In this document: piece by piece, positions 7,470 through 32,000 of the stretch
Numbering within the stretch: position 1 is the first letter of the stretch
Layout of the letters: the number at the start of each line of letters is the position of its first letter
Origin: Erysipelotrichaceae bacterium OH741_COT-311
GTDB taxonomy: Bacteria > Bacillota_I > Bacilli_A > Erysipelotrichales > Erysipelotrichaceae
DNA: 32,000 nt
Assembly (NCBI GenBank): GCA_003858585.1
Contig: RQZE01000006.1
Coordinates: forward strand, 1 to 32,000
Direction of reading: 5' to 3'
The notes under the pieces: generated by a model
Databases searched by the model: none
Told to the model about the DNA's origin: nothing
Seen by the model: only the letters and a program-made list of their open reading frames with translations
Made by a program: the position numbers and the translations under genes

Positions 7470-7573
7470 AACTAGAAGAATACATTTAAAAATATACGAA
7501 TTAGTTTACCGTTTGTACTTTTTAGTAAATAAATGAAAGAGCTAAAAATTATAAATTTAAACTTATCAAAAAT

Positions 7574-7604
7574 GAAAAAAAGCATTATACTATAACGCTT
7601 TTTT
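7574..7604 (-). terminator. Rho-independent terminator after the GDPD gene (A/T-flanked, could act in both directions)
   Basis: agcattata (7581-7589) pairs with tataacgct (7591-7599), 9 bp including one G-U; the inner pairs must open to form a loop. An A run lies on the left (a T run on the minus strand) and TTTTTT on the right. Confidence 0.5.
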
Positions 7605-7686
7605 CAAAATAGAAAAGAGAAAAGAGGAAGAGATATTTTTACTATAAATAGTATAGAAATTAGTAAAATTTTTAGATAAGAAATAT

Positions 7687-13595: not shown

Positions 13596-16412
13596 ATGAA
13601 GCAAGATAAAATAGTAATTAAAGGAGCTCGAGTAAATAACTTAAAGAATATTGACTTAGAGATTCCTCGTAATAAATTAGTAATTATGACGGGCTTATCG
13701 GGTTCGGGAAAGACGTCACTTGCCTTTGATACGATTTATGCGGAAGGACAACGACGTTATGTAGAATCTTTGTCTGCGTATGCTCGTCAGTTTTTAGGTG
13801 GAGTGGAAAAACCGGATGTCGATTTGATTGAAGGGTTATCTCCGGCAATTTCCATTGATCAAAAAACAACGAGTAATAATCCGCGTTCGACCGTAGGGAC
13901 AGTAACAGAAATCTATGATTATTTACGTTTGTTTTGGGCGCGTATAGGCACGCCCTTTTGTCCGATTCATCATGAACCGATTGAATCGCAAACCATATCA
14001 CAAATGATTGAGCGTATTATGTTGTTGGAAGAAGGTTCCAAGCTTGAAATTCTAGCACCGGTTGTTCGTCGTAGTAAAGGAACACATAAAGATTTATTGG
14101 ATAAATTATTTAAAGATGGATATGTGCGTTGTTATATTGATCAAGAGTTAGTATTGATTGAAGAGGCACCAAGTTTAGAAAAGAATAAAAATCATACGAT
14201 TAGTGTCGTCGTAGATCGTATTATAAAAAAAGAAGATATTCGTAGTCGTCTACATGACTCCCTTGAAACATGTTTAAAACTAGCAAATGGTCTTGCGATT
14301 GTAAAGTGTGGAGATGAAGAAACCTTATTTTCAAGTAATTATAGTTGTCCACATTGTGGTTTTAGTGTGCCTAATTTAGAGCCTCGCTTGTTTTCTTTTA
14401 ATAGTCCTCTTGGTGCTTGTCATCAATGTAAAGGTTTAGGTATTACGCAAGAAGTGGATGTAGAGCTTTTGATTCCGGATGATCGTTTAAGTATCCATGA
14501 AGGTGGTATTCGCTATTATAAAAATATTGTAAATACGACGAATTTAGAGTGGCAGAAGTTTGAAATTTTATGTCGTCATTACGAGATTGATTTGGATAAA
14601 CCGTTAAAAGATTTTACAAAAAAAGAGTTAGATATTATTTTAGTGGGTTCGGATGAAGAAATTAAGTATGAAATTCATTCTAATAGTGGAAATAAGTATA
14701 TTCGTAAGGAATATATTGAAGGAGTAAAGACCTTAATTGAACGTCGTTTCTTTGAAACCAATTCTAATTTTTCAAAAGAGTGGTATCAAACTTTTATTAT
14801 GGAAACAACATGTAAGACGTGTTTGGGGAAACGTTTAAATGAAGTGGCTTTATCTGTAAAAGTCAATGACTTCAGTATTCATGATTTTACACATTTATCC
14901 ATTGAAAAAGCCTTAACATGGATTCAGGAAGTAAAATTAAATGAAACACAAATGGAAATTGCAAGGTTAGTGATTGCGGAAATTACCAATCGTTTAACAT
15001 TCTTAAATGATGTTGGTTTAGGTTATATTACTTTAGATCGCTTTGCCGGTACTTTAAGTGGTGGAGAGGCTCAGCGTATTCGTCTAGCTACTCAAATCGG
15101 TTCTAAGTTAACCGGTGTTTTATATGTCTTAGATGAACCTTCTATAGGATTGCATCAAAAAGACAATGCGAAGTTAATTCAAACGTTAAAGAATATGCGT
15201 GATTTAGGAAATTCCTTGATTGTCGTGGAACATGATGAAGAAACGATGATGGAATCGGATTACATTGTTGATATTGGTCCTGCGGCAGGTCTTGCAGGGG
15301 GTCAAGTTATGGCGGTGGGTACTCCGCAAGAAGTCATGGAAAATCCAAATTCGATTACGGGGCAATATCTAAAAGGAACATTGAAGATTGAGTATCCTAA
15401 GAAGCGTAGTAAAGGGAATGGTAAATTCATTGAAGTTAAAAAAGCAAGCGAAAATAATTTAAAGGATGTAGATGTTAAAATTCCACTTGGTACAATGTGT
15501 GTAGTAACCGGTGTAAGCGGTAGTGGGAAATCGACGTTAGTGAATGAAATTATTTGTAAGGCTGCGAAACAGTATTTAGGTCATGTGCGTAGTAAACCCG
15601 GTAAATATAAAACAATCAAAGGGTTAGAACATATTGATAAAGTGATTGAAATTGATCAAGATCCGATCGGACGTACACCACGTTCCAATCCGGCGACGTA
15701 TACAGGAGTTTTTGATGATATTCGTGACTTATTCGCATTAACTCCATTGGCGAAATTAAAGGGGTATGATAAAGGCCGTTTCTCTTTTAATGTGAAAGGT
15801 GGACGTTGTGAAGCTTGTCAAGGAGATGGATTAAAGCGTATTTCTATGCATTTTTTACCGGATGTCTATGTTCCTTGTAGTCAATGCCATGGGGCTCGTT
15901 ATAATGAAGAGACACTTGAAGTTAAATATAAAGAGAAAAGTATTTATGATATTTTAGAGATGACCATTGAAGATGCGTTGGTGTTCTTTGGTAATATTGC
16001 AAAAATTAAAAATAAACTAGAAACATTAAACGATGTAGGTTTAGGCTATTTAAAACTTGGACAAAGCGCAACCACTTTAAGTGGAGGAGAAGCTCAACGT
16101 GTAAAACTGGCTAGTGAACTACAAAAAAAGGCAACTGGTAAAACGATGTTTGTTTTGGATGAACCAACGACAGGGTTACATACTCATGATGTAGCCAAGT
16201 TATTAAAGGTATTAAAACGCATTGAAGCCAATGGGGATACGGTTATTATTATTGAACATAATTTAGATATTATTAAAAATGCGGATTATATTATTGACCT
16301 TGGTCCATTAGGTGGCGATGGTGGAGGTCAAATTGTAGCGAAAGGAACGCCTGAGGAAGTAAGTAAAATCAAAGAAAGCTTTACAGGAGCGTATTTAAAG
16401 AAGGTGTTATAA
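13596..16412 (+). CDS. uvrA: Excinuclease ABC subunit A
   Basis: 938 aa. It has two ABC ATPase modules (Walker [13 protein letters not shown] and [11 protein letters not shown]; signature [12 protein letters not shown] and [12 protein letters not shown]) and zinc modules CPHCGF...CHQCKG and CEACQGDG...CSQCHG. Confidence 0.98.
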
Positions 16413-18912: not shown

Positions 18913-19473
18913 ATGAAGAAATTATTACTTTTATGTGCAGCAGCAATGTTGTTGATAACAGGTTGTAGCACTACAAAAACAGCAAAGTTTAAACCGAGTG
19001 TATTAGCGAAAGAGTTGGTAGAAACAAAAGACAAGGCATTCTTTATGTCTTTGACAGAACAAAGTCCGGATGAATTGGAAGTAATCAGCTTGCAAGATGT
19101 TTCATTTATTGATGGTTTTGCATCAAAAGAAGCATGTGCAGCGGATGTATTAGCTAAGGATAAAGAAGCGTATACAACAGCGATACAAGATCTGGGAAAA
19201 GCGTATAGTGAATTATTAGCTGGTTTAGATGGAAAAACAGAAGAAAAAGCAACGTTAAATGCGAAAGATGTTGTATTTGGATTTAAGATTACAAGTCCTG
19301 GTTTAAATAAAACAATTTATGTTTATTCTAGTAAATTTGTAAAATTATATGATGGTACTACAGATTATATTTATGCATTGACAGATGAAGAGTTCGCTAA
19401 CTTAAGTAAGGTAAAAGATGACTTCTTTGGTTATTACCATGGCGAACAAATGCCTTGTTGGAATAAAGAATAA
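18913..19473 (+). CDS. Lipoprotein of unknown function
   Basis: 186 aa with a GGGAGG RBS and the signal peptide + lipobox MKKLLLLCAAAMLLITGCS. I recognise no domain. Confidence 0.75.
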   Translation: MKKLLLLCAAAMLLITGCSTTKTAKFKPSVLAKELVETKDKAFFMSLTEQSPDELEVISLQDVSFIDGFASKEACAADVLAKDKEAYTTAIQDLGKAYSELLAGLDGKTEEKATLNAKDVVFGFKITSPGLNKTIYVYSSKFVKLYDGTTDYIYALTDEEFANLSKVKDDFFGYYHGEQMPCWNKE

Positions 19474-19480
19474 TTTTTAA

Positions 19481-19509
19481 AAGACAGTGAGAAATCATTG
19501 TCTTTTTTG
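19481..19509 (+). terminator. Rho-independent terminator of the lipoprotein gene
   Basis: aagacagtga (19481-19490) pairs with tcattgtctt (19495-19504): 10 bp with one G-U, GAAA loop, running into TTTTTT. Confidence 0.8.
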
Positions 19510-19533
19510 TAAAGAAGTGTTAAATCGTATGTT

Positions 19534-19630
19534 TTAGGGAACATTTTGTATATAAATATCTTTAAAAGTTCCCTAAAAGATTGTTTCATAGGGAACTTTT
19601 TGTTATTATTTTGATAGGAAAGTTCCCTAT
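19534..19630 (+). promoter_or_regulatory. Operator-like array: two copies of TAGGGAAC-N25-GTTCCCTA, 54 nt apart, directly upstream of the Fic-like gene
   Basis: TTAGGGAAC (19534-19542) pairs with GTTCCCTAA (19568-19576), and ATAGGGAAC (19588-19596) with GTTCCCTAT (19622-19630). Both inner spacers are exactly 25 nt and AT-rich. The first spacer contains TATAAAT (19551-19557). The last half-site abuts the AAGAGG RBS (19631-19636). Confidence 0.5.
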
Positions 19631-19645
19631 AAGAGGTTTAAGAAG

Positions 19646-20590
19646 ATGAACAATACATTTAATATTATACAGAAATTACTTCAGGAAAAGGCAGATTATC
19701 AAGCTCGTTTAAGCTTGATTCCTTATGATGGATCTCCTGAAGTTAAAGAAAATACGAGTGGAAAATATCTATATATTAGGAAAAGAGTTAAAGGGAAATT
19801 GACATCCACTTATGTCGATGTATATTCGGATGAATTGTATCAATTTTTACTTCGCAATTTTAAAGAAGCGCGAGAATTAAAAAAGCAGATTCGTCGTGTT
19901 GATAAAGAGCTTACTAAAAATGGTTATGTATCAGAAGAACTTTCATTAGATGTGTTGATGAATCTAGATTTTGCAAGAGCGAATATGAAAGCAAATATCT
20001 ATGATCAAGCAATTTTAGAGGGAGTTGCTACAACGTTTCCACAAACAGAAGAAATCATAGAAAATGGTACTGTAAATGGAATGTCAGCTAGTGATGTACA
20101 AAAGATTCTTAATTTAAAACATGCATGGGAGTTTATCCTTGATAAAGATGTCATACAAGCGGATAGTAACTTCTATTTATTGTCACATATAGCTAAATTG
20201 GTCAATGAAGGATTCTTTCATGATGGCGGAAGGATTCGAGGGGTTCCTGTAAGTATTGGTGGTACCAGCTATATTCCACCATTACCTATAGAACCCATTG
20301 TTATAGAAACGATGAATGCAATTGTAAAGTCAAACAAAGAACTTATTGATAAAGCCATTGAACTTTGTATGTATTGTATGCGAACGCAAATCTTTCTTGA
20401 TGGGAATAAACGAGCATCCATCATCTTTGTGAATCATTTTATGATTTCTCATGGATTGGGAATCCTTGTTATTCCTGAAAATCATGTTACAGAGTTTAAG
20501 AAGAAACTGGTTGAGTATTATGAAAATGCCGATATACAAGGAATGAGTGTATTCTTAAAAGAAAAATGTTGGAAGAAAATGAACGATTAA
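19646..20590 (+). CDS. Fic/Doc-fold protein with degenerate active-site motif (QIFLDGNKR instead of HxFxDGN[GK]R)
   Basis: 314 aa. The layout is Fic-like: an alpha-inh-like QAILEGVATTF, then GRIRGVPVSIGGTSYIPPLPIEPIVIETM (cf. G.yR...V.I.g..y.pP), then the core motif TQIFLDGNKRASIIF at nt 20387-20413. The first roughly 100 aa form an unrecognised domain. Confidence 0.7.
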   Translation: MNNTFNIIQKLLQEKADYQARLSLIPYDGSPEVKENTSGKYLYIRKRVKGKLTSTYVDVYSDELYQFLLRNFKEARELKKQIRRVDKELTKNGYVSEELSLDVLMNLDFARANMKANIYDQAILEGVATTFPQTEEIIENGTVNGMSASDVQKILNLKHAWEFILDKDVIQADSNFYLLSHIAKLVNEGFFHDGGRIRGVPVSIGGTSYIPPLPIEPIVIETMNAIVKSNKELIDKAIELCMYCMRTQIFLDGNKRASIIFVNHFMISHGLGILVIPENHVTEFKKKLVEYYENADIQGMSVFLKEKCWKKMND

Positions 20591-20709
20591 AATTTAAGAA
20601 TTTAAGAATAGTATAAATGATATATTGACTATTCAGTTAAAATTCTATATCATATTATGATTTAACTTTAAAGTTGAATGGGCGGTATGGGCAAAGAAAG
20701 GATTTAATT

Positions 20710-21393
20710 ATGTATCATTTTGAATATGTAAAAAAAGTAGAGTATATACCAGAGAAAAAAATCATAAAGCTTCTACAAGATGTAAAAAGAGATTTAAGCA
20801 AAAAATTTACAATACGTTTTAAGTTTGTGGGAAGTGTGGCACGTAATATGATTACACGAGACAAAAAAACAAATGTTGGATATGATTTTGATGTAAATAT
20901 TTATGTGGATAATGTTTATGATTACAAACCAAAATATATACGTATGGAAATTCGAAAATCCATTGATAAATTTGTTAAGAAGTATGGATATGCTACAGTT
21001 GAAGATAGTACAAGTGTACTCACTATTAAGGTAAAAGACAAAGCAAAGTCTTGTATTAAGCATAGTTGTGATTTTGCAGTGGTAGATGAATTTGAAGATG
21101 AAGATGGAAATTGGAATCAATGCTATATAAAACTCAATAAAAAAAGTAATTCTTATATCTGGCAAGAGCGATCAAATAGTTTTTATGACCTACAATATAA
21201 AATAGAATGGCTAAAAAAGAATAACTATTGGCATGAAGTTCGTAATCAATACATTGAAAATAAAAATAAAAATGAAAATCCAAAAGTGAAATCAAGATCA
21301 ATCTTTGCGTATACAGTAGCGGAAGTATTTCATTGGTATAGAGAAGCAAGAAAACCAAAAGTAAAACAAGATATAGTTTTAAACTTTTGGTGA
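20710..21393 (+). CDS. Minimal Pol-beta-superfamily nucleotidyltransferase (SMODS/CD-NTase-like appearance)
   Basis: I place the start at ATG 20710 (GAAAGGA RBS 7 nt upstream) rather than the track start at 20674, giving 227 aa. NTase signature FVGSVARNMITRDKKTNVGYDFDVNIYV (G-S...D-x-D, nt 20830-20892) plus a downstream acidic strand HSCDFAVVDEF. The C-terminal half is helical. The gene is AT-rich (11 G+C in 20881-20940 by hand count). Confidence 0.55.
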   Translation: MYHFEYVKKVEYIPEKKIIKLLQDVKRDLSKKFTIRFKFVGSVARNMITRDKKTNVGYDFDVNIYVDNVYDYKPKYIRMEIRKSIDKFVKKYGYATVEDSTSVLTIKVKDKAKSCIKHSCDFAVVDEFEDEDGNWNQCYIKLNKKSNSYIWQERSNSFYDLQYKIEWLKKNNYWHEVRNQYIENKNKNENPKVKSRSIFAYTVAEVFHWYREARKPKVKQDIVLNFW

Positions 21394-21422
21394 AATAAGT
21401 TTCATAAATAATAGGAGTTAAT

Positions 21423-21896
21423 ATGATTAAAATTATGTTTGTGTGCCACGGCAATATTTGTCGTTCAACCATGGCAGAAGCGATTGCGAAAGATATGATT
21501 ATAAAAAGAGGACTTCAAGATAAGATAGCAGTGGCATCTTGTGCGACAAGTTGTGAAGAACTAGGTAATGAGCCGGATGCTAGAACGATGAAGGTATTGA
21601 ATCGACACGGCTATGATGCAAGTGCGCTTTTAAAGGGAAAACGTGCTAGACAAGTAAAACGTCATGAATATACAGATTGGGATTACTTTTTTGTCATGGA
21701 TGACAACAACATTCGTAATCTTTCCGGAATCTTTGAAGATACCGATCAAAAAGTGTACAAGATAGCTACATATACAAAAGGATTGAATAAAAATGTGGCA
21801 GATCCTTGGTATAGCGGTGACTTTGAAACGACATATCAAGAATTAATTGAGTACATTGCTATTCTTTTTGATAAGCTTATTGATGGTGTATTATAA
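21423..21896 (+). CDS. Low-molecular-weight protein-tyrosine phosphatase
   Basis: 157 aa with an AGGAG RBS, the N-terminal P-loop IMFVCHGNICRSTMAEA (CX5R-S/T) and the general-acid motif VADPWY. Confidence 0.9.
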   Translation: MIKIMFVCHGNICRSTMAEAIAKDMIIKRGLQDKIAVASCATSCEELGNEPDARTMKVLNRHGYDASALLKGKRARQVKRHEYTDWDYFFVMDDNNIRNLSGIFEDTDQKVYKIATYTKGLNKNVADPWYSGDFETTYQELIEYIAILFDKLIDGVL

Positions 21897-23522: not shown

Positions 23523-24290
23523 CTATAACATCTTCTCTACCGGAAGTTTATTACACACTTCGTAGAGTTCTTTTTTTATACCTTCGGCTTGTTTTGAATC
23601 GATTTTTAACATCGTTTTATATTGGTACAAATAAAACTGTGTAAGTTCTTTATTGTTCATATATGCCGTATTTACTAATTTATAGTTTTTTAGTGCTTTT
23701 TGATAATCGTTACTCATATAGTAAAATAAGGCTTCTAATTCTGTGTAGTGATAAATAGGAGCAATCTTATGCCCTTTTACTTTTGCATCTTTTAACTTTA
23801 CAATTTCAGGATACCATTTTTTAGCTTGTGTTTTATTATTAGCATAAACATGGGCTTGAAAGGTTGATACATTTCGGATGAACAACATATCAATGGAGCT
23901 GCGAAATTGTTTGTCGTAAGTTTCCAGATGCTTTAAAATACGTTCACTATCAAAGGTTGCAACATAATAAAGTAAGCCAAATAAAATACGATCGTTTTTG
24001 TAGGAACGAAAGATATCTTTTTTTTGTAAATGATTAAAAATTGTTACTGCTTTTTCAGGATCACATTCCATATTTAAGGCTTTGATAGCAAGGTGATATT
24101 GATATTTTAAATATTCTGCAAATATAGCAACACTTAACATAATCAGGGTGATTGCTAAGTAGAGTGCTTTTACTTTTATATCTTGTGTTTTTAAGATTAA
24201 GTTTACTGAAAAAATGACAAAAACTGTATAAATAATAAAATTGATTATGCGTTGTGTTTTGGGATGAAAAATAAATTGTTTTAGTTTCAT
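23523..24290 (-). CDS. Hypothetical membrane-anchored helical-repeat (TPR-like) protein, co-transcribed with the DeoR regulator
   Basis: 255 aa with a GAGGT RBS. Two N-terminal TM helices (IINFIIYTVFVIFSVNLIL; ALYLAITLIMLSVAIFA) precede a helical Tyr/Lys-rich soluble part. Its stop is 8 nt from the DeoR start. Confidence 0.55.
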   Translation of the reverse strand: MKLKQFIFHPKTQRIINFIIYTVFVIFSVNLILKTQDIKVKALYLAITLIMLSVAIFAEYLKYQYHLAIKALNMECDPEKAVTIFNHLQKKDIFRSYKNDRILFGLLYYVATFDSERILKHLETYDKQFRSSIDMLFIRNVSTFQAHVYANNKTQAKKWYPEIVKLKDAKVKGHKIAPIYHYTELEALFYYMSNDYQKALKNYKLVNTAYMNNKELTQFYLYQYKTMLKIDSKQAEGIKKELYEVCNKLPVEKML

Positions 24291-24352
24291 ATCGTTTTAA
24301 CCTCAACCTATTATATGTTTATATAGACATAAAAGTCAATGTATTTAAGACA

Positions 24353-24366
24353 TGTAAACGCTTAAT
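24353..24366 (+). promoter_or_regulatory. Candidate cre (CcpA) site in the ula / deoR divergent control region
   Basis: TGTAAACGCTTAAT matches 12/14 positions of TGWAANCGNTNWCA and shares the core TAAACGCTTA with the GH31 cre candidate. It sits 6 nt upstream of TATAAT (24373-24378). Confidence 0.35.
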
Positions 24367-24477
24367 TTCATGTATAATTTTGTAAATAATTCATATAAAC
24401 GGTCAAATAATCATATAATTGTATTGTGAATTAATGAGTAATTATATATGATTACTTTAGGTAAAGGAGTGTGAAGT

Positions 24478-25542
24478 ATGCCAAAAGTAAATGATGTTAC
24501 ACGTGAATCTTGGATTTTAGGAGCGTTTCCGGAATGGGGAACTTGGCTAAATGAAGAAATTGACAATGAAGTTGTAAAACCTGGGAATTTAGCGATGTGG
24601 TGGCTTGGCTGTGTTGGACTTTGGATGAAGACAGAAAATGACACAAATATTGCGATTGATTTGTGGTTTGGCAATGGAAAACGAACGCAAAAAGTAGCGG
24701 AGATGTTACCTTATCATCAAATGAGAAATATGATGGGGGTTAAGGCACTACAACCAAATTTAAGAGGTGCACCGATTGTTTATGATCCATTTGCAGTTAC
24801 AAAGTGTGATGCTGTATTGTCGACACATTATCATAATGATCATATTGATTTGTTCTTTGCAGCAGCTGTACTTAAGAATTGTAAGGATGATGTGCCGTTT
24901 ATCGGACCGTTGGAAAGTGTTAAGAAGTGGCTTGCATGGGGTGTTCCTGAAGAACGCTGCCGTGTAGTAAAACCGGGAGATGTGATTCAAATCAAAGATG
25001 TGAAAATTCACGTATTGGATTCTTATGATCGTACGTGTCTTGTAACAACAGAAGTAAATGAAAATATCAGTGGTATTTGTCCAAGTAATATGGATGATAA
25101 AGCGGTTAACTATTTATTTGAAACACCTGCGGGTAATATTTATCACACTGGTGATTCACACTATAGTATCTGTTATGCAGAAATCGGTAAGAAGTATGAC
25201 ATTGACGTAGTATTTGGTTCTTACGGAGAAAATCCGGTTGGTTGTCAAGATAAGATGACTTCTGTGGATATTTGTCGTATGGCAGAAGCATGTAATGCAA
25301 AAGTGGTAATTCCACTTCATTATGATGTATGGACAAACATGAAAGCAGATCCGGAAGAAATCATGATGATTTATAATTTTAAGAAAGATGTATTGAAGTA
25401 TAAATTCCATCCGTTTATTTGGGATGTTGGTGGTAAATATATTTGGCCACAAGATAAAGATTTATTGAAGTTCCATTATCGTCGTGGATTCGAAGATTGC
25501 TTTACAGAAGAAAGAAACGTTCCGTTTAAGAGTATCTTATAA
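24478..25542 (+). CDS. ulaG: L-ascorbate-6-phosphate lactonase
   Basis: 354 aa, collinear with E. coli UlaG from the first residues: [22 protein letters not shown]...[13 protein letters not shown]...[11 protein letters not shown] (metallo-beta-lactamase HxHxDH). Confidence 0.93.
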
Positions 25543-26003
25543 TGAGTAATCTATTGCAGACGATGATAGATAACAAATTGACTTGTTATCATGAAGGATT
25601 TGAAGATTGGAAAGATGCATTAGTGGCTTGTGGACAACCATTAATGAAGGCTGGTTATATTACAAGTGAATATATCGATGCGATTATTGATTGTGTTGAA
25701 AAATATGGTTCTTATATTGTAATTGCTCCAAATATCGCAATGCCTCATTCTACTGAAAATGCGAAAGGGACATTGAAAACAGGCATTGGCTTTATGAAGG
25801 TAAATCAAGCCGTAGTGTTTGAAAAAGAGGATCGTGAAAAAGATGCAAGATTGTTCTTTACACTTGTATCTTGTAATCATGAAGATCATTTGGCAAACAT
25901 GATGCAGCTATCTGAACTTTTAATGAATGAAGAGTTAGTGAGTGAATTGCTTAAGGTGAATAACGATGAAGAGTTATTAGCCGTAGCTAGAAAGTATGCG
26001 TAA
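25542..26003 (+). CDS. ulaC: Ascorbate-specific PTS enzyme IIA
   Basis: 153 aa; the start overlaps the ulaG stop (taATG). It belongs to the PTS_EIIA_2 family, with YIVIAPNIAMPHS containing the phospho-His (cf. E. coli UlaC YFVLAPGLAMPHG). Confidence 0.9.
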   Translation: MSNLLQTMIDNKLTCYHEGFEDWKDALVACGQPLMKAGYITSEYIDAIIDCVEKYGSYIVIAPNIAMPHSTENAKGTLKTGIGFMKVNQAVVFEKEDREKDARLFFTLVSCNHEDHLANMMQLSELLMNEELVSELLKVNNDEELLAVARKYA

Positions 26004-26020
26004 GCATAAAGGGGAATAAT

Positions 26021-27490
26021 ATGAATTTTTTATTTGAAATATGGAAATTTTTTGCCAGTAACATTCTAACCCAACCGGCTTATTTCATTGGGTTTATGGT
26101 TTTAGTAGGATACTTATTATTACGTAAACCGGTCTATGAAGCATTTGCAGGTTTTATTAAAGCAACGGTTGGTTATCTTATTTTAGGTGTTGGTTCTGGA
26201 GGATTAGTTAGTAACTTTAGACCAATTTTAGTTGGATTAAAAGATCGTTTTAATTTAGATGCAATGGTGATTGACCCATACTTTGGACAAAATGCGGTTC
26301 AAACAGGGATGGAAGAAGTATTTGGTCGTACCTTCTCACAAGTAATGTTGTTACTTCTTGTGGCATTTATTTTTAACTTATTATTAGTACGTTTTAAAAA
26401 GTTCACAAAACTTCGTGCCGTATTTACAACCGGGCATGTGCAAATGCAACAATCAGCAACAGCATTTTGGCTAATTTTATTCTGTTTCCCAGCGTTGGGT
26501 GATAATGTAACATTAGTGGTTATGGGGCTAGTGTTAGGTCTATATTGGGCAGTTGGTTCAAACTTAACAGTTGAAATTACACAAGATTTAACTGAGGGTG
26601 GAGGCTTCTGTGTGGCTCACCAACAAATGTTCGGTTTATATTTCTTCTCAAAATTATCAGAACGCTTTAAAGGTAAGAACTCTAAGCGTTTAGAAGATAT
26701 TCAACTTCCTGGTTGGTTGTCAATCTTTAATGAAAACATGGTTGCAACTTCCATCTTAATGTTAGTATTCTTTGGTATTATCTTAGCTGTTTTAGGTAAA
26801 CCATATTTAGTAGAACAAGGTTTCTTGAAAGCAGATAAAAACTTCTTCTTCTACATTACAACAACATGTTTTAACTTTGCAGTATATTTAGCAATCTTAC
26901 AATTAGGTGTTCGTACATTCGTTACAGAACTTACACAATCATTCCAAGGTATTTCGAACTCATTCTTACCGGGTGCAGTTCCAGGTATTGACTGCGCTGC
27001 AACGTATGGATTTGGATCTCCAAATGCCGTTACAGTAGGATTCTTAGCTGGTGCTTTTGGTCAATTCTTAGCTATCGTTGGATTAATTTTATTAAAATCT
27101 CCAACATTGGTTATTGCAGGTTTCGTTCCTGTGTTCTTCGATAATGCAACAATTGCTGTATTTGCAAATAATAAAGGTGGTATTAAAGCTGCCATCATCA
27201 TGCCATTTATTGCAGGGCTATGCCAAGTGTTAGGTTCAGCACTCATCGCTTCTTGGGTAGGATTAGCATCTTATGGTGGATACTTAGGTATGTGGGACTG
27301 GGCAGTTGTATGGCCAATCTTTACAGTAGTTATGAAGTACTTGAGTTATGCCGGTTTAGCAATCGTGATTATTACATTAATCGCAATTCCACAATTACAA
27401 TATCGTGCAAATCCGGATACATATTTCTTAATCACAGAAGATTATGATGCATATAAAGAAAAAATGGAAAGTAAGAAAGGGATGAAATAA
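26021..27490 (+). CDS. ulaA: Ascorbate-specific PTS enzyme IIC (SgaT/UlaA family)
   Basis: 489 aa polytopic membrane protein. The N-terminus FFASNILTQPAYFIGFMVLVGYLLL and overall pattern are typical of UlaA/SgaT. Confidence 0.92.
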   Translation: MNFLFEIWKFFASNILTQPAYFIGFMVLVGYLLLRKPVYEAFAGFIKATVGYLILGVGSGGLVSNFRPILVGLKDRFNLDAMVIDPYFGQNAVQTGMEEVFGRTFSQVMLLLLVAFIFNLLLVRFKKFTKLRAVFTTGHVQMQQSATAFWLILFCFPALGDNVTLVVMGLVLGLYWAVGSNLTVEITQDLTEGGGFCVAHQQMFGLYFFSKLSERFKGKNSKRLEDIQLPGWLSIFNENMVATSILMLVFFGIILAVLGKPYLVEQGFLKADKNFFFYITTTCFNFAVYLAILQLGVRTFVTELTQSFQGISNSFLPGAVPGIDCAATYGFGSPNAVTVGFLAGAFGQFLAIVGLILLKSPTLVIAGFVPVFFDNATIAVFANNKGGIKAAIIMPFIAGLCQVLGSALIASWVGLASYGGYLGMWDWAVVWPIFTVVMKYLSYAGLAIVIITLIAIPQLQYRANPDTYFLITEDYDAYKEKMESKKGMK

Positions 27491-27792
27491 TGTTAAAAAT
27501 ATTAGTTGCGTGTGCCAATGGTGCCGGGACATCGTTAATGATGAAAATGCGAGTGGAAAAGGCTACAAAGGATTTAAATCTTAAAGTACAAACCATTCAT
27601 CATTGTTCGCTTTCAGAAGGAAAAAGTGCTGCAAGTCAATATGATATCGTATTTTGTCCATTAAATTTTGTAAGTATGTTTGATGATGCTGCAAAAAAAG
27701 GTGTAAAGATTTGTGGTATGAAAAATGTCTTATCGGATAAAGAAGCTCAAGAGTTACTAAAGGCTTCTGGCTTAGTTGAGCTACATCAATAA
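27490..27792 (+). CDS. ulaB: Ascorbate-specific PTS enzyme IIB
   Basis: 100 aa; the start overlaps the ulaA stop. The N-terminal KILVACANGAGTSLMM carries the phospho-Cys loop. Confidence 0.9.
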   Translation: MLKILVACANGAGTSLMMKMRVEKATKDLNLKVQTIHHCSLSEGKSAASQYDIVFCPLNFVSMFDDAAKKGVKICGMKNVLSDKEAQELLKASGLVELHQ

Positions 27793-27798
27793 TCATTT

Positions 27799-27819
27799 AA
27801 GCTGCCAATTTGGCAGCTT
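27799..27819 (+). terminator. Intra-operon hairpin (weak terminator/attenuator or processing site) between ulaB and the downstream catabolic genes
   Basis: aagctgcca (27799-27807) pairs with tggcagctt (27811-27819): a 9-bp stem with a 3-nt loop, followed only by gtttatt, a poor U tract. Confidence 0.4.
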
Positions 27820-27840
27820 GTTTATTAAAAGGAGAATACA

Positions 27841-28866
27841 ATGAAAATTGAAAAAATACATTTAGATGATATAAGAAGATGCTATAGTGCAAGTCATATC
27901 ACAATTGATAATAAATTTTATGCCTTATTGGCAAGTGAAGATCCTAACAGTTTATGTATGGCATATTCCGGGAAAGATTTTAGTGAAAAAGAAGTGGTTT
28001 GGAAGGATCGTGGTGGCTGTATGTCGATTATTCCGATTCCGGGTAAAAATGGTGAGTTTTTGGCAGTAAATGAGTTTTATTTAAAAGTATCTCCAAGTCT
28101 AGCGAAGATTGTTTGGGGTAAAAAAACAGAAAACGGATGGGAAATAAAAGATTTATTTTCACTACCATATATTCATCGTTTTGATATTTACAATGTAAAT
28201 GGTGTAAATTATTTCATTGGCGCAACCATCGCCAAAGATAAACAACATAAAGAAGATTGGAGTTTACCGGGACAAATCTATGTAGCAAAACTTCCGGATG
28301 ATTTAACGCAAGAAATACATTTAGAAAAGATTTATGATGATTGTTATCGCAATCATGGATATGCTCAAGGTGTATATGAAGGAAAAGTATGTGGATACTT
28401 TGCATCGGATCAAGGAGTGGTGCGTGTTATGCCTCCGTATGATGGTAAATGGACGATTGAAAAAATCTTAGATGGAAACATCAGTGAAATCGCCTTTAGT
28501 GATGTCAATAACGATGGACAATTGGAAATGATGACGATTGAACCATTCCATGGCAATCAAATGAAAATCTATAAATTAGTAAATGGTAAGTATGAATTGG
28601 ATTACACGTATCCAACAGAAATTGATTTTGCACATACCTTAGTTGGTACAACTATCTGTGGTGTAAATAGTTTTGTTGGTGGTGTACGTCGTGTAGAAGC
28701 AGAATTATTTATTATTCAATACCACAATGGTCAATATGAGGTAACAATTGTTGAAAAGGGTGTGGGTCCTGCAAACTTAACAGTTGTAAACTTTGAAGAC
28801 GAAGACATCATCATTTCAGCAAATCATACAAAAGATGAAGCAGCTATTTATCGCATTACAAAGTAG
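27841..28866 (+). CDS. Uncharacterised 341-aa protein in the ulaD position (beta-rich; one FG-GAP-like Ca loop DVNNDGQLE)
   Basis: Strong AAGGAG RBS and tight operon spacing. There is no resemblance to the UlaD/SgbH (OMP-decarboxylase fold) sequence. The strand-like periodicity is repetitive (e.g. FLAVNEFY, YFIGATIA, VCGYFAS, EMMTIEPF), and DVNNDGQLE lies at nt 28501-28527. Confidence 0.6.
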   Translation: MKIEKIHLDDIRRCYSASHITIDNKFYALLASEDPNSLCMAYSGKDFSEKEVVWKDRGGCMSIIPIPGKNGEFLAVNEFYLKVSPSLAKIVWGKKTENGWEIKDLFSLPYIHRFDIYNVNGVNYFIGATIAKDKQHKEDWSLPGQIYVAKLPDDLTQEIHLEKIYDDCYRNHGYAQGVYEGKVCGYFASDQGVVRVMPPYDGKWTIEKILDGNISEIAFSDVNNDGQLEMMTIEPFHGNQMKIYKLVNGKYELDYTYPTEIDFAHTLVGTTICGVNSFVGGVRRVEAELFIIQYHNGQYEVTIVEKGVGPANLTVVNFEDEDIIISANHTKDEAAIYRITK

Positions 28867-28875
28867 GAGGTTTGT

Positions 28876-29571
28876 ATGTTAGAACAATTAAAAGAAGAAG
28901 TATTTCAAGCGAATTTACTATTACCAAAATATCAACTTGTAACCTTTACTTGGGGTAATGTATCAGCCATTGATCGTGAAAAAGGCTTAATTGTGATTAA
29001 ACCAAGTGGTGTAGAATATGAAACCATGAAAGTGGAAGATATGGTTGTTTGTGATATGGATGGAAATGTCGTGGAAGGACACTATAAACCATCAAGTGAT
29101 TTAATGACTCATCTTGAACTGTATAAGAATTTTAAAGATATTAAGGCAGTTGTACATACGCATTCAAGATATGCAACTTCATGGGCACAAGCCAATCAAG
29201 ACTTAGTGGCATTGGGTACAACGCATGCAGATTATTTCTATGGTAACATTCCTTGTACCGATAAAATGCGTGTGGATGCGATTCAAGGTGAATATGAACT
29301 TGAAACAGGAAAAACCATTGTTGAGGAGTTTACAAAGCGTAATATTGATCCAAACCAAATGCCGGCTGTATTAGTGGCAAGTCATGGTCCTTTTACATGG
29401 GGGAAGGATGCGAAAAATGCGGTATTTAACTCTGTAGTATTAGAAGAAGTTGCATTTATGGCAATGAATACACTCTTGATTAATAAAGAGGTTGGACGTA
29501 TGCAACAAGAATTATTAGACAAGCACTTTTTAAGAAAACATGGTCCGAGAGCTTACTATGGGCAAAAATAA
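28876..29571 (+). CDS. ulaF: L-ribulose-5-phosphate 4-epimerase
   Basis: 231 aa of the AraD/UlaF class II aldolase family: [31 protein letters not shown]...[12 protein letters not shown]...VHTHS. Confidence 0.92.
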
Positions 29572-30418
29572 ACAATATCAATTAGGGCAATATGAAAAAA
29601 GTATGCCTAATGAGTTAACTTGGGAAGAAAAGTTAAGTTATTGTAAAGAGTTTGGATTTGATTACTTAGAGATGAGTATTGATGAAAGCGATGCGAAACT
29701 TGCACGTTTAAAGTGGAGTGATGATGAAATTGATGCCTTAAGACATCTCATGGAAGAAAAAGATCTTTATATTAAATCCATTTGTTTAAGTGGACATCGT
29801 CGTTTTCCATTAGGAGATGAAGATCCGGAAGTAACAAAAAAAGCACTTGAAATCATGCAGGAAGCCGTTGATTTAGCTTATAAACTAGGCGTTCCTATTA
29901 TTCAGTTGGCTGGTTATGATGTCTATTATAAAGAAGGCAATGAAAAGACAAAGGTAAATTTTATTGAAAATCTAAAAAAAGCCACACTTATGGCAGCAAA
30001 TAAAGGAATTCTTTTAGGCTTTGAAACGATGGAAACACCTTTTATGGATACGGTAGGTAAGTCAATGGAATATGTTAAGTTAGTCGATAGTCCATACTTA
30101 CATGTATATCCGGATTTTGGTAACTGTACCAATGCGGCATTGAAGTATGGGCATAACGTCTTAGATGATTATCGACTAGGAAAAGGGCATATCATTGCCG
30201 GACATTTAAAAGAAATGTTACCCGGGAAATATCGTGAAGTTCCTTTTGGAACGGGACAAACGGATTTCAAGGGTGGTATTGAAGTCTTGAAAGAATTAGG
30301 TGTTCGTCGTTTTGTTGGTGAGTTTTGGTATGTTGGTCAAGAAGACTGGCAGAAGGATTGTTACTTCGCAAATACTTTTTTAAGAAGTTATTTGGATGAA
30401 GTGTTTAAAGAAGATTAA
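29558..30418 (+). CDS. ulaE: L-ribulose-5-phosphate 3-epimerase (L-xylulose-5-P 3-epimerase)
   Basis: I place the start at ATG 29558 (14-nt overlap with ulaF). [17 protein letters not shown] aligns with E. coli UlaE MLSKQIPLGIYEKALP. It also has [35 protein letters not shown] and [10 protein letters not shown]. Confidence 0.92.
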
Positions 30419-30461
30419 AAAATAAGACCTTAAATTAAAAATAACATATAACAAAACACAC

Positions 30462-30511
30462 ATGAAAAAGGATATTATTCTAAATTATTATATTTAATAT
30501 CCTTTTTTCAT
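30462..30511. terminator. Bidirectional terminator / island boundary hairpin between ulaE and the convergent AT-rich genes
   Basis: atgaaaaaggatatt (30462-30476) pairs with aatatccttttttcat (30496-30511): a 15-bp inverted repeat (one extra T) with a 19-nt AT loop. Confidence 0.6.
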
Positions 30512-30543
30512 ATGAAGTTATATTATTTAAATCATTTTGAATT

Positions 30544-31452
30544 TTAAGGGTGAAGACTTAATATCCTTTTTTTATCATTATCATTCAATATTTTATGATA
30601 AATTTTAGTTTCATCTAAATCTAAATGTTTTATTGTGATTTTTTTGAATTTTTTAATTGCACATTGACATTTCTCACAAGGAAATTTAGAGACGTAAATT
30701 ATACCATTAAAGTTACTGTGGTTGTAAATAAAATTCTGTAAAATTTTTCTTTCACAACAATTGTAATGATTTATTTCGTATTTTATTGGAAGTTTATTAA
30801 AAAAGTTAGTGTCATTTAATTTTAGGTGTTTATAATAATAAAAAAAGCAGTAAGGATAATGATCAAAAAAAAATCTAAAATCATCAATAAAATATCGACA
30901 AATTCTTCTCTTAAAATCTTCATGCATATACATGTTATCAAAACATTCATGCATATACATGTTATCAAAACATTCATGCATATACATGTTATCAAAACAT
31001 TCATGCATATACATGTTATAAAAACATTCATGCATATACATGTTATAAAAACATTCATGCATATACATGTTATAAAAATATTCTGAATCATTTTTTAAAA
31101 ATTTTAGTTCAATATCACATGACGAGATATTTTCTAATGAATGAAATCTAATGGAATTATCATTTAGTGGGCAGTATAGTATATGTGCGTTCTTATATAT
31201 TTCGTTAATTATTTTTTTACCTTTTAATATCAAGTCAATAATATAGCGCTTTTCCTCTCTTTGATAAACATTGCCTTGATAATCTTCTGTCCCACTTATA
31301 GAAAAGTAGATTATACTCCTATTATCAGGGTCTTTAAAATCCTTTTTTAGAAGTGCAACACATTTATGTTTAATGATATTTTTAACTTCTATGTCATAAA
31401 GAGATTTTGTACTAAATAGTTCTTTAAGAAAATCTTCAAAAAAATCATTCAT
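30544..31452 (-). CDS. Hypothetical protein with C-terminal cytidine-deaminase-like zinc motif (CxE-x23-PCxxC) and an internal 9-aa x6 tandem repeat
   Basis: 302 aa with a GGAGA RBS. The start overlaps the upstream ORF stop (ATGAATGA, 31445-31452). The C-terminus reads ...IKYEINHYNCCERKILQNFIYNHSNFNGIIYVSKFPCEKCQCAIKKF (CCE codons 30751-30759; PCEKC 30667-30681). The middle reads (YNMYMHECF)x3(DNMYMHECF)x2 DNMYMHEDF. No signal peptide or TM helix. The DNA is extremely AT-rich. Confidence 0.6.
   Translation of the reverse strand: MNDFFEDFLKELFSTKSLYDIEVKNIIKHKCVALLKKDFKDPDNRSIIYFSISGTEDYQGNVYQREEKRYIIDLILKGKKIINEIYKNAHILYCPLNDNSIRFHSLENISSCDIELKFLKNDSEYFYNMYMHECFYNMYMHECFYNMYMHECFDNMYMHECFDNMYMHECFDNMYMHEDFKRRICRYFIDDFRFFFDHYPYCFFYYYKHLKLNDTNFFNKLPIKYEINHYNCCERKILQNFIYNHSNFNGIIYVSKFPCEKCQCAIKKFKKITIKHLDLDETKIYHKILNDNDKKRILSLHP
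30920..31081 (-). repeat. Tandem 27-bp repeat, 6 copies, in frame within the 30544-31452 CDS
   Basis: The plus-strand unit tcatgcatatacatgttatcaaaacat is identical in copies 1-3 (30920-31000). Copies 4-5 (31001-31054) differ by one C->A at unit position 20, changing Asp to Tyr on the coding strand. Copy 6 (31055-31081) carries that change plus one more substitution. All six frames stay open across the repeat. Confidence 0.97.
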
Positions 31453-32000
31453 TTATATCTTCTCCATTTCTATACTTAATTTGTAATTTAACATATATAT
31501 TATTATCTTCTTCTAAACTGAATTCAAACTCATTAAAATATTTAGATAAATTATAAGCATGGTGAACATATTCAGGATATTTAGAGTTATTAATATCATC
31601 AATTAATTTTGAATCTTTTTGTAAGATTTCGTTATAAATCTTCTTTGTAAAGTCAATATTACGATTTTCATTATTATCATCAGAATCTTCATTATGATTT
31701 ATTGTGTTATGACGACAGATTTCTGATAAAAGAATGAAAAATTTTCGAGAGTTATTTTCGTTATTATTTTCTTTTATATAATCATCATAAATTTTTCTCG
31801 CAAAATTACTGTATTGAATTGAGTTTATAGACAGATATAGTGTATCAATGAAAAAGTAAAAATCAGAAATAGACATTTTTATTGTATTATTATAGAAAGA
31901 ATCTTCATTTTGAGCAAGTTCTATCTCATAATTTACATTTGATTTTTCGTTTTGAGCAATTTTTGATAACAAATAAATATCAATAAGATGTGGTAAGTTA
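31445..32000 (-). CDS. Hypothetical Asn/Asp-rich protein, 5' end probably outside the window; translationally coupled to the deaminase-like gene
   Basis: The track start is a TTG at 31970-31972, but I translated the same frame to nt 31999 and it stays open (..NLPHLIDIY-LLSKIAQ..), so the gene is probably truncated by the window. I recognise no domain. It has a low-complexity stretch, NHNEDSDDNNENRN. Confidence 0.5.
   Translation of the reverse strand, partial: NLPHLIDIYLLSKIAQNEKSNVNYEIELAQNEDSFYNNTIKMSISDFYFFIDTLYLSINSIQYSNFARKIYDDYIKENNNENNSRKFFILLSEICRHNTINHNEDSDDNNENRNIDFTKKIYNEILQKDSKLIDDINNSKYPEYVHHAYNLSKYFNEFEFSLEEDNNIYVKLQIKYRNGEDINE

What the first reader, a model, noticed from the sequence alone, without database searches (positions are those of the whole stretch)
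30420..32000. AT-rich terminal island with a translationally coupled operon ending in a deaminase-fold-like protein: candidate uncharacterised toxin/defence module
Composition drops sharply right after the ulaE terminator hairpin: by hand count, 10 G+C in 31441-31500 versus 28 in 15301-15360 of uvrA. Two minus-strand ORFs overlap by 8 nt (ATGAATGA), implying coupled translation, and the upstream ORF runs off the window, so the operon may be longer. The distal 302-aa protein ends with NCCERKIL-(x)-GIIYVSKFPCEKCQCAI. This is Cys-x-Glu, 23 residues, then Pro-Cys-x-x-Cys, with a hydrophobic strand directly before PC. That is the zinc-ligand geometry of the cytidine-deaminase-like fold: tetrameric CDAs use C-A-E-R...P-C-G-x-C, and AID/APOBEC use H-x-E-x23-28-P-C-x2-4-C. 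I see no signal peptide, TM helix or toxin-delivery domain. The N-terminal roughly 110 aa and the partner protein contain nothing I recognise. Deaminase-fold effectors are established in polymorphic toxin/TA systems and in anti-phage defence (dCTP deaminases, AvcD, RADAR RdrB). A cytoplasmic deaminase-like protein coupled to unknown partner(s) in a foreign-looking island is therefore a plausible novel module.
Basis: partly seen in the sequence, partly recalled or inferred. Interest (0 to 1): 0.7.

Follow-up and report, generated by a model that had tools for sequence, protein, structure and literature searches.

The report
Strain-specific orphan operon with deaminase-like protein
A 1.8-kb piece of foreign-looking, AT-rich DNA, present in this dog-mouth bacterium but missing from a near-identical relative, carries two coupled genes with no relatives in about 15 billion known proteins. 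One of them ends in a zinc motif that looks like a cytidine/dCMP deaminase, so it is a plausible but unproven toxin or defence module.

Summary
Window 30426-32000 is the left part of a 1,785-bp insertion (GC 0.22 against 0.34). It is absent from a conspecific genome that is 97-98% identical in the flanks.

- **Operon:** the insertion holds exactly two minus-strand genes, not a longer operon. GeneA is 212 aa, acidic, and starts 83 nt beyond the window. GeneB is 302 aa. They overlap by 8 nt (ATGAATGA), each has a GGAGAAG ribosome-binding site, and a strong hairpin is shared with ulaE.
- **Orphans:** neither protein has a relative. An exhaustive HMMER search of 1.84 billion representatives hit only geneB's repeat segment, spuriously.
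- **Motif:** geneB has C232-x-E234-R235, then 23 residues, then P258-C259-x-x-C262.
- **Profile evidence:** the C-terminal fragment gives sub-threshold Pfam hits to six families, all deaminases (SNAD4, dCMP_cyt_deam_1, APOBEC_N, OTT_1508, APOBEC1, APOBEC4). None of 17 motif-preserving shuffles does. My own dCMP-deaminase HMM beats 5,994 of 6,000 motif-preserving shuffles.
- **Not shown:** no hit reaches a curated threshold, AlphaFold failed (pLDDT 36-39), and motif conservation cannot be tested.

A deaminase fold is likely (about 0.6). A toxin or defence role is inferred from context only.

The parts
30426..32000 (.). Left 1,575 bp of a 1,785-bp strain-specific low-GC insertion. It ends at composite coordinate 32210, 210 bp beyond the window. 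It replaces 17 bp of the conspecific empty site.
   Evidence: blastn of the conspecific MAG locus L003 against window + L002: L003 1-6868 = 23558-30425 and L003 6886-7940 = 32211-33265. GC is 0.221 against 0.334-0.340 in the flanks. No target-site duplication, terminal inverted repeats, tRNA or integrase.
30461..30514 (.). AT-rich hairpin between the convergent ulaE-like gene and geneB. Probably a bidirectional terminator.
   Evidence: RNA fold -25.4 kcal/mol, z = -5.27, 0 of 200 shuffles as stable. A T-run follows on either strand.
30544..31452 (-). geneB (EII25_03965), 302 aa. Layout: N-terminal domain of unknown type, 9-residue x 6 repeat linker, C-terminal deaminase-like domain.
   Evidence: ORF. 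Identical NCBI protein, the single member of its cluster. Chance of an open frame about 4e-14.
31084..31452 (-). geneB N-terminal region, residues 1-123, no recognisable family.
   Evidence: Pfam at E up to 10: nothing. PDB, phage and plasmid searches: nothing credible (only a chance ThreeFoil hit at E 1.8 in the PDB search). No similarity to the C-terminal domain.
30922..31083 (-). In-frame tandem repeat, 27 nt x 6, residues 124-177, (E[YC]F[YD]NMYMH)6. The RNA forms long inter-copy hairpins.
   Evidence: TRF: period 27, 6.4 copies, 96% matches. Unit listing. RNA fold -58.2 kcal/mol, z = -5.5. Logan unitigs break inside it.
30547..30921 (-). geneB C-terminal domain, residues 178-302, basic (pI 9.2, net +9). 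Candidate cytidine/dCMP-deaminase-like zinc domain.
   Evidence: Pfam sub-threshold hits to SNAD4, dCMP_cyt_deam_1, APOBEC_N, OTT_1508_deam, APOBEC1 and APOBEC4. 0 of 17 motif-preserving shuffles hit any of these deaminase families. Own HMM: 0 of 6,000 composition shuffles and 6 of 6,000 motif-preserving shuffles reach the real score. Charge.
30748..30759 (-). Codons for C232-C233-E234-R235: candidate zinc ligand Cys and catalytic Glu at the start of a predicted helix.
   Evidence: Covered by the Pfam dCMP_cyt_deam_1 alignment, protein 229-270 to profile 51-94 of 102.
30667..30681 (-). Codons for P258-C259-E-K-C262: candidate second and third zinc ligands.
   Evidence: The local alignment IYVSKFPCEKCQCAI to lYvtlfPCnECaKaii of viral dCMP deaminases.
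31445..31452 (-). 8-nt overlap ATGAATGA: the geneB start codon lies inside the end of geneA.
   Evidence: Coordinates and sequence.
31459..31465 (-). GGAGAAG ribosome-binding site, 6 nt upstream of the geneB ATG, inside geneA.
   Evidence: Read directly from the sequence. The same heptamer precedes geneA.
31445..32000 (-). geneA (EII25_03970), 212 aa in full; the start codon is at composite 32083, beyond the window. Acidic (pI 4.8, net -14), Asn-rich, no recognisable family.
   Evidence: No credible match in any profile or sequence search (only chance-level Pfam DALR_1 and SLT_4 and NCBIfam dihydroorotate oxidase hits, E 0.016-0.08).

Best explanation
A horizontally acquired, strain-specific two-gene cassette. 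GeneB is a cytoplasmic three-part protein whose basic C-terminal ~125 residues form a zinc-dependent deaminase-fold domain. C232, C259 and C262 would be the zinc ligands and E234 the proton shuttle. R235 would offset the charge of the third cysteine, as in Cys3 cytidine deaminases. The sequence around PCxxC is closest to dCMP deaminases and AID/APOBEC-like enzymes. GeneA, an acidic 212-aa protein made first and translationally coupled to geneB, most likely binds and restrains geneB, acting as an antitoxin, inhibitor or sensor partner. When that restraint is lost, geneB would deaminate cytosine in nucleotides or nucleic acids, arresting the cell or an invading phage.

Shown: the insertion, the operon anatomy and coupling, the motif, and profile similarity beyond the motif. 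Inferred: the fold, zinc binding, catalysis, the substrate, the partner's role, and any toxin or defence function.
For: **Insertion and foreign origin**
- Clean empty site in a conspecific genome.
- GC 0.22 against 0.34, with lower GC at all three codon positions.

**Real, expressed-looking operon**
- Long ORFs in DNA where about 10% of codons would be stops.
- GGAGAAG sites before both genes, an 8-nt overlap, a promoter-like site and a terminal hairpin.

**Motif**
- CxE(R), 23 residues, PCxxC.
- The spacing lies within the 21-24 seen in 23 viral dCMP deaminases. It compares with 22 in DCTD and 26 in TadA.

**Profile similarity**
- The full protein hits dCMP_cyt_deam_1 at E = 0.021, in register with the zinc-binding region.
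- The isolated C-terminus hits six deaminase families at E from 0.001 to 1.2.
- 0 of 17 motif-preserving shuffles, and a five-alanine motif mutant, hit any deaminase family.
- An independent HMM built from viral dCMP deaminases scores the real sequence 11.4-12.4 bits. That beats 6,000 of 6,000 composition shuffles and 5,994 of 6,000 motif-preserving shuffles. A mixed HMM gives the same picture.

**Context and charge**
- Charge complementarity: geneA is -14 and the geneB C-terminus is +9.
- A neighbouring second strain-specific insertion encodes a KAP NTPase matching PADLOC PDC-S20, PifA and QatA models.
- Deaminase toxins and defence deaminases are established: PMC3239186 and PMC10511110.
Against: - No deaminase model reaches its gathering score: 17-19.6 bits against 25-27.
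- For this K/N/I/F/Y-rich composition, 5 of 17 shuffles gave unrelated Pfam hits at E between 4e-4 and 3e-2, so the E-values alone mean little.
- The similarity detected by my own HMMs is local, about 20-30 residues around PCxxC.
- A narrow TadA HMM is only weakly better than shuffles, P about 0.005-0.02.
- AlphaFold2 without an alignment gave pLDDT 36 and 39, and the Foldseek search of the model was meaningless.
- No PDB deaminase is found by sequence.
- There are no homologues, so motif conservation and selection cannot be assessed.
- No PADLOC, PHROG or NCBIfam match for either protein.
- GeneA shows no DNA-binding or immunity-family signature.
- At 302 and 212 aa, both proteins are large for a classical type II toxin-antitoxin pair.
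Confidence: 0.4

Rival explanations
1. GeneB's C-terminus is a zinc-binding module that is not a deaminase fold, or is a catalytically dead one. The cassette would then be an orphan pair whose function is unrelated to deamination.
For: All deaminase hits are below threshold and short. Shuffled sequences of this composition readily give spurious Pfam hits, including a zinc-finger family at E = 4e-4. GeneB is Cys- and His-rich overall, with 15 Cys and 16 His. Structure prediction failed.
Against: The first ligand is CxE at a predicted helix start, not a CxxC knuckle. The hits converge on one superfamily and stay in register. Motif-preserving shuffles almost never reach the real score.
Confidence: 0.25
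2. The cassette is recently acquired or decaying DNA with no present function. The ORFs would be leftovers of a mobile element from a more AT-rich donor.
For: Seen in one isolate only, and absent from the conspecific genome. No relatives anywhere. The repeat array is nearly perfect, so it expanded recently.
Against: Both frames are intact across 514 codons in stop-rich DNA. Ribosome-binding sites, coupling, a promoter-like site and a terminator are all preserved.
Confidence: 0.1
3. A nucleoside or nucleotide salvage deaminase (an analogue of Cdd or ComEB) with an accessory protein.
For: The best local similarity is to the dCMP deaminase zinc region. CxER resembles tetrameric cytidine deaminases; this point rests on my own knowledge and was not tested against real Cdd sequences (one search found none to test with).
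Against: It is strain-specific, foreign in composition and has no orthologues. It has an extra N-terminal domain and a repeat linker. No NCBIfam equivalog matches.
Confidence: 0.05
4. A secreted polymorphic-toxin deaminase with its immunity protein.
For: Many bacterial deaminase clades are such toxins (PMC3239186). There is a weak OTT_1508_deam hit at E = 0.051.
Against: No signal peptide, TM segment, or LXG, WXG, RHS or other trafficking domain. The partner gene lies upstream rather than downstream. No Imm, SUKH or SUFU match.
Confidence: 0.04
5. The 27-nt array is the functional element, and the long geneB ORF is partly incidental. The array could be a repeated RNA antitoxin sitting 5' of a deaminase toxin, as in type III toxin-antitoxin systems such as AvcI/AvcD. 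Alternatively it could be iterons inside a plasmid rep gene.
For: The array RNA folds far better than shuffles, z = -5.5. The unit is open in two of three frames on that strand. AvcID pairs an RNA antitoxin with a deaminase toxin.
Against: The N-terminal 123 codons are open in the same frame (chance about 3.5e-6, my calculation's stop-codon frequency). No ribosome-binding site or start signal follows the array. There is no canonical terminator after it. No RepA_N or other Rep match. No Rfam family beyond chance.
Confidence: 0.05

Closest known systems
dCMP / cytidine deaminase zinc-binding domain (Pfam PF00383 dCMP_cyt_deam_1; DCTD, ComEB, phage Cd, TadA)
   Same: [CH]xE, about 22-26 residues, then PCxxC. 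A hydrophobic strand (IYVSKF against lYvtlf) lies directly before PC and a helix follows. The spacing of 23 is within the 21-24 of viral dCMP deaminases.
   Different: Cys replaces His as the first ligand, and Arg follows the Glu. The score is 15-18 bits against a cutoff of 25. The upstream VGA and GxN strands are not recognisable. The protein adds a 123-aa N-terminal domain and a repeat linker. It is an orphan, not housekeeping.
AID/APOBEC-like deaminases, including SNAD4 (PF18750), APOBEC_N (PF08210) and APOBEC1 (PF18769)
   Same: SNAD4 is the best Pfam score (19.6 bits, E = 0.001), covering E234 to about residue 287. Bacterial toxin origins of this clade are proposed in PMC5889660.
   Different: Below the cutoff of 27. 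CxE rather than HxE. SNAD4 proteins are secreted sponge proteins. Whether helix 4 precedes strand 5 here is unknown.
AvcID and dCTP-deaminase anti-phage systems
   Same: A deaminase effector held inactive by a co-encoded upstream partner, carried on an acquired island (PMC10511110).
   Different: AvcI is an sRNA, whereas geneA is a 212-aa protein. No PADLOC match for either protein or for the isolated C-terminal domain. The N-terminal region matches no Pfam family, kinase or otherwise.
Polymorphic-toxin deaminases (DddA/SCP1.201, SsdA/DYW-like, YwqJ, MafB19, OTT_1508; Iyer et al. 2011, PMC3239186)
   Same: Small, fast-diverging, strain-variable deaminase domains at protein C-termini, paired with a tightly linked neutralising protein.
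   Different: No secretion or trafficking module. The partner is upstream and overlapping. None of these families is matched, apart from OTT_1508 at E = 0.05.
Type II toxin-antitoxin operons
   Same: Two genes with the upstream one acidic, overlapping stop and start codons, an acquired islet, and a basic putative effector.
   Different: Both proteins are two to three times the usual size. No HTH, RHH or AbrB domain in geneA. No known toxin family.

Membership tests
Deaminase (CDA) superfamily | HxE/CxE/DxE zinc and catalytic motif in helix 2 (PMC5889660) | tested here: met
   C232-C233-E234. The helix is predicted only by low-confidence models.
Deaminase (CDA) superfamily | CxnC (usually PCxxC) in loop 5 and the start of helix 3, preceded by strand 3 | tested here: met
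   P258-C259-E-K-C262 preceded by IIYVSKF.
Deaminase (CDA) superfamily | Spacing between the two motifs typical of the superfamily | tested here: met
   23 residues, against 21-24 in 23 viral dCMP deaminases, 22 in DCTD and 26 in TadA.
Deaminase (CDA) superfamily | Profile match above a curated threshold to any member family | tested here: not met
   Best scores are SNAD4 19.6 of 27 bits and dCMP_cyt_deam_1 17.7 of 25 bits. The real sequence is still significantly better than motif-preserving shuffles.
Deaminase (CDA) superfamily | Three-layer alpha/beta/alpha fold with a five-stranded sheet and the ligands clustered on one zinc | tested here: inconclusive
   AlphaFold2 gave pLDDT 36 for the full protein and 39 for the C-terminus. 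Foldseek was uninformative.
Deaminase (CDA) superfamily | Motif conserved among homologues | not testable with these tools
   No homologue in 1.84 billion representatives, the 5.8 billion clusters of the protein collection, or the genome, metagenome, viral, phage or plasmid collections.
AvcD / dCTP-deaminase defence proteins | Match to the defence deaminase models | tested here: not met
   No PADLOC match for the whole protein or the C-terminus.
AvcD / dCTP-deaminase defence proteins | RNA antitoxin encoded upstream (AvcI) | tested here: not met
   The upstream element is a 212-codon ORF with its own ribosome-binding site. No Rfam match.
Polymorphic toxin deaminases | N-terminal secretion or trafficking domain, or a signal peptide | tested here: not met
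   No Pfam domain in residues 1-123 and no hydrophobic segment.
Polymorphic toxin deaminases | Immunity gene immediately downstream, from a known Imm, SUKH or SUFU family | tested here: not met
   A terminator and the convergent ulaE-like gene lie downstream. The partner is upstream and matches nothing.
Type II toxin-antitoxin system | Bicistronic operon with the antitoxin first and coupled translation | tested here: met
   8-nt overlap, and a single promoter-like site upstream of geneA.
Type II toxin-antitoxin system | Antitoxin with a DNA-binding domain; toxin from a known family | tested here: not met
   No credible Pfam, PADLOC or NCBIfam match for geneA; the only hits are chance-level (DALR_1, SLT_4, dihydroorotate oxidase; E 0.016-0.08), none to a DNA-binding domain.
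Type II toxin-antitoxin system | Toxicity of the distal gene neutralised by the proximal gene through direct binding | not testable with these tools
   Needs expression and pull-down experiments.
Tetrameric (Cys3) cytidine deaminase | CxE followed by Arg plus PCxxC, with the substrate-binding NxE / FxxGAA elements | tested here: inconclusive
   CCER and PCEKC are present. The upstream elements are not recognisable by eye. No real Cdd profile could be built.

The most novel reading that the evidence does not exclude
GeneA and geneB would found a new two-protein conflict system, of toxin-antitoxin or abortive-infection type. Its effector would be a compact bacterial deaminase of about 125 aa, standing between dCMP deaminases and AID/APOBEC-like enzymes. 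It would use a Cys3 zinc site and be fused to a new N-terminal sensor domain through an expandable linker of Met/His/Cys-rich 9-residue repeats. A new acidic protein inhibitor would control it. A further possibility is that the hairpin-forming repeat RNA also takes part in regulation, echoing AvcI/AvcD.
Probability: 0.2. Interest if true: 0.65.

Novelty: new variant of a known kind. Interest (0 to 1): 0.4.

Why it matters
If geneB is an active deaminase, it would be a very small and highly divergent member of a superfamily that has repeatedly supplied toxins, immune effectors and base-editing enzymes (PMC3239186, PMC5889660, bioRxiv 10.1101/2023.05.21.541555). It would come with a ready-made protein inhibitor and an unexplored regulatory domain.

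It also shows how strain-specific AT-rich islets at intergenic sites can hide effector genes that sequence searches, and even AlphaFold without an alignment, cannot classify.

Its reach is limited. The cassette is known from one isolate only, so it says little about a widespread biological system unless relatives turn up.

Tried and rejected
**Homologue searches, all empty**
- Word-indexed search of 5.8 billion clusters for both proteins.
- Exhaustive phmmer of geneB against 1.84 billion representatives. The 18 hits all fell on the repeat segment and are unrelated repeat proteins.
- GTDB genomes, JGI metagenomes and IMG/VR, searched by back-translated peptides.
- A degenerate CCER-N63-FPCxxC DNA pattern. 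It gave 22 metagenome matches, all non-coding noise, and 0 viral matches.
- tblastn against phage and plasmid collections for geneA and for both halves of geneB.
- PDB by sequence.
- PHROGs, PADLOC and NCBIfam.

**Structure**
- AlphaFold2 on the full protein and on the C-terminus, both below pLDDT 40. Foldseek on the poor model was meaningless.
- I considered threading with a TadA/DCTD alignment. I dropped it because MAFFT put CxE two residues out of register and the result would have been circular.

**Bait search.** It returned only near-identical TadA and DCTD proteins. hhalign against it aligned only 15-31 columns. A viral scan for tetrameric Cdd found none.

**Ideas rejected**
- Internal duplication, with the N-terminus a second deaminase domain: no similarity.
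- Transposon-like ends or a target-site duplication: only short AT-rich chance repeats.
- tRNA integration site: none.
- RepA_N-type rep gene with internal iterons: no Rep match.
- A known RNA family in the island: none.
Full report
**Source and anatomy.** The window comes from Erysipelotrichaceae bacterium OH741_COT-311, a canine oral isolate. Both target proteins are identical to NCBI entries EII25_03965 and EII25_03970 on a 128,822-bp contig. This is one of 33 canine oral genomes described in PMC6557473.

The finding's coordinates hold two minus-strand ORFs:
- geneB, 30544-31452, 302 aa.
- geneA, 31445 to beyond the window end.

The region is 22.0% GC against 34.0% for the rest of the window. 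No other stretch of equal length falls below 29.6% (profiles).

With this base composition about 9.7% of codons would be stops. Open frames of 302 and 212 codons therefore have chance probabilities near 4e-14 and 4e-10. The genes overlap by ATGAATGA. A GGAGAAG site lies 6 nt before the geneB start, inside geneA.

**Beyond the window.** I recovered the continuation through the full-length geneA protein (P0002, 212 aa) and a Logan contig of run SRR9701139 that is identical to the window where they overlap.
- GeneA starts 83 nt past the window end. The same GGAGAAG heptamer and a TAGACA-17-TATTAT promoter-like site precede it.
- The next gene is a divergently transcribed S66 peptidase at normal GC.
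- A low-GC KAP-family NTPase follows, and then ordinary genes: aldolase, Zn peptidase, rhodanese and an ABC transporter.

So the operon has exactly two genes. On the other side, a strong AT-rich hairpin (-25.4 kcal/mol, z = -5.3) sits between geneB and the convergent ula-type operon. That operon carries PTS EIIA/EIIC/EIIB, a class II aldolase and an AP_endonuc_2 (xylose-isomerase-like) protein.

**The island is a strain-specific insertion.** A scan of GTDB species representatives with the ulaE-like protein returned a conspecific MAG, isolate S17M_Sa_23, locus L003, with 99% protein identity.
- Its DNA matches this strain at 97.4-98.2% on both sides.
- It has 17 bp where this strain has 1,785 bp (30426 to composite 32210; geneB, geneA and their signals; GC 0.221).
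- It has 64 bp where this strain has a second insertion of 1,805 bp (the KAP NTPase; GC 0.249).
- The S66 peptidase between the two insertions is conserved.

There are no target-site duplications, terminal inverted repeats, tRNA genes or recombinases at either insertion. GeneA and geneB have lower GC than host genes at all three codon positions: GC1 0.31 against about 0.49, GC2 0.18 against about 0.30, GC3 0.16-0.20 against about 0.25. This fits an origin in a more AT-rich donor. The KAP NTPase matches PADLOC models PDC-S20 (9e-17), PifA (4e-13) and QatA (7.5e-13). The S66 peptidase gene is thus flanked by two variable islets, one of which looks defence-related.

**Both proteins are orphans.** Neither protein has a relative in any collection I could search.
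- The word-indexed search of 5.8 billion clusters found only the proteins themselves.
- An exhaustive phmmer of geneB against 1.84 billion representatives gave 18 further hits. All fall on residues about 110-210 and all are unrelated repeat-containing proteins.
- Genome, metagenome and viral scans, a degenerate motif-pattern scan, phage and plasmid tblastn, PDB, PHROGs, PADLOC and NCBIfam gave nothing.

**GeneB architecture.**
- It is in frame and encodes EYFYNMYMH, then ECFYNMYMH twice, then ECFDNMYMH three times.
- Copies 2-3 are identical to each other, and so are copies 4-6, so the array is young.
- It divides geneB into three parts: an N-terminal region (residues 1-123, near-neutral, no match to anything), the acidic repeat linker (residues 124-177), and a basic C-terminal region (residues 178-302, pI 9.2, net +9).
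- The two ends are not similar to each other.
- The Logan unitigs stop inside the array, so its copy number rests on one assembly.
- As RNA, the array folds into long hairpins because each unit carries the quasi-palindrome CAUGUAUAUGCAUG (z = -5.5).

**Is the C-terminus a deaminase?** The motif is C232-C233-E234-R235, 23 residues, then P258-C259-E-K-C262. PMC5889660 defines the superfamily by HxE/CxE/DxE in helix 2 and CxnC at loop 5 and helix 3. Both signatures are present. The spacing falls within the 21-24 of real viral dCMP deaminases, and compares with 22 in DCTD and 26 in TadA.

Pfam results:
- The full protein hits dCMP_cyt_deam_1 at E = 0.021, 15 bits, in register (229-270 to profile 51-94 of 102).
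- Residues 215-302 alone hit SNAD4 (0.001), dCMP_cyt_deam_1 (0.0034), APOBEC_N (0.033), OTT_1508_deam (0.051), APOBEC1 (0.27) and APOBEC4 (1.2).
- All are deaminase families, and all are below their cutoffs of 25-27 bits.

Controls:
- Among 17 shuffles that keep C232, E234, P258, C259 and C262 in place, none hit any deaminase family. A five-alanine motif mutant lost all hits.
- The same shuffles gave unrelated hits at E between 4e-4 and 3e-2 in 5 of 17 cases. Pfam E-values in this range are therefore not trustworthy for this composition. What counts is the convergence on one superfamily.

For an unlimited control I built an HMM from 22 non-redundant viral dCMP deaminases plus DCTD.
- The real fragments score 11.4 and 12.4 bits.
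- None of 6,000 composition shuffles reaches those scores. Only 1 of 3,000 and 5 of 3,000 motif-preserving shuffles do.
- A mixed dCMP-deaminase/TadA HMM agrees, while a narrow TadA HMM is weaker.
- The aligned stretch is short, essentially IYVSKFPCEKCQCAI against lYvtlfPCnECaKaii.

Structure prediction failed without an alignment (pLDDT 36 and 39). My estimate for a deaminase fold is about 0.6. The motif plus its context is better than chance by roughly three orders of magnitude. The fold, the N-terminal strands of the domain and catalysis remain unverified.

**Function.** The case for a conflict module (toxin-antitoxin, abortive infection or defence) rests on architecture and context only:
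- an acquired, strain-variable islet;
- an acidic upstream partner (net -14) coupled to a protein with a basic putative effector domain (net +9);
- no export signals;
- a candidate defence gene in the adjacent islet;
- precedent for deaminase toxins and defence deaminases (PMC3239186; AvcID, PMC10511110).

Against membership in any known system:
- No PADLOC, PHROG or NCBIfam match.
- No trafficking domain, and no downstream immunity gene as in polymorphic toxins.
- No RNA antitoxin as in AvcID.
- No DNA-binding antitoxin domain.

I therefore treat it as working like a protein-restrained deaminase effector, but as a member of none of the named systems.

**Verdict.** The deaminase-like reading survives controls but stays below every formal threshold, and the toxin or defence role is inference. 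As a singleton orphan cassette in one isolate, it is of moderate interest. Its value would rise sharply if simple expression and activity tests were positive.

Noticed in passing
window 30922-31083 (minus strand): The in-frame 27-nt x 6 array encodes a Met/His/Cys/Glu-rich 9-mer, which could bind metal. Its RNA forms very stable inter-copy hairpins (z = -5.5). Independent Logan unitigs break inside it, so the copy number is supported by one assembly only.
   Followed up: partly
beyond the window: composite 33266-35070 (L002 about 7014-8818): A second strain-specific low-GC insertion of 1,805 bp, absent from the conspecific MAG. It encodes a 559-aa KAP-family NTPase that matches PADLOC PDC-S20, PifA and QatA models. 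Together with the first insertion it brackets a conserved S66 peptidase gene.
   Followed up: partly
window 18913-21393: A 314-aa DUF6788 protein with a faint Fic signal (19646-20590) weakly matches the PADLOC candidate PDC-S04 (2e-7). Two ORFs with no family match flank it (18913-19473 and 20674-21393). GC dips to 0.275 around 20501-21500. This may be another accessory or defence-like patch.
   Followed up: no
window 100-7302 (minus strand): A 2,400-aa protein with a GH31 glycosidase core, F5/8 type C domains, a dockerin-like segment and six Listeria-Bacteroides repeats. It is probably a large surface-anchored glycan-degrading enzyme.
   Followed up: no
method note: Shuffled sequences with this K/N/I/F/Y-rich composition produced unrelated Pfam hits at E between 4e-4 and 3e-2 in 5 of 17 cases. 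Sub-threshold Pfam E-values should not be read at face value for proteins from very AT-rich DNA.
   Followed up: yes
window 30461-30514: The shared ulaE/geneB hairpin is missed by the consensus terminator scan because its stem is almost all A-T. Its fold is nevertheless far more stable than shuffles.
   Followed up: yes
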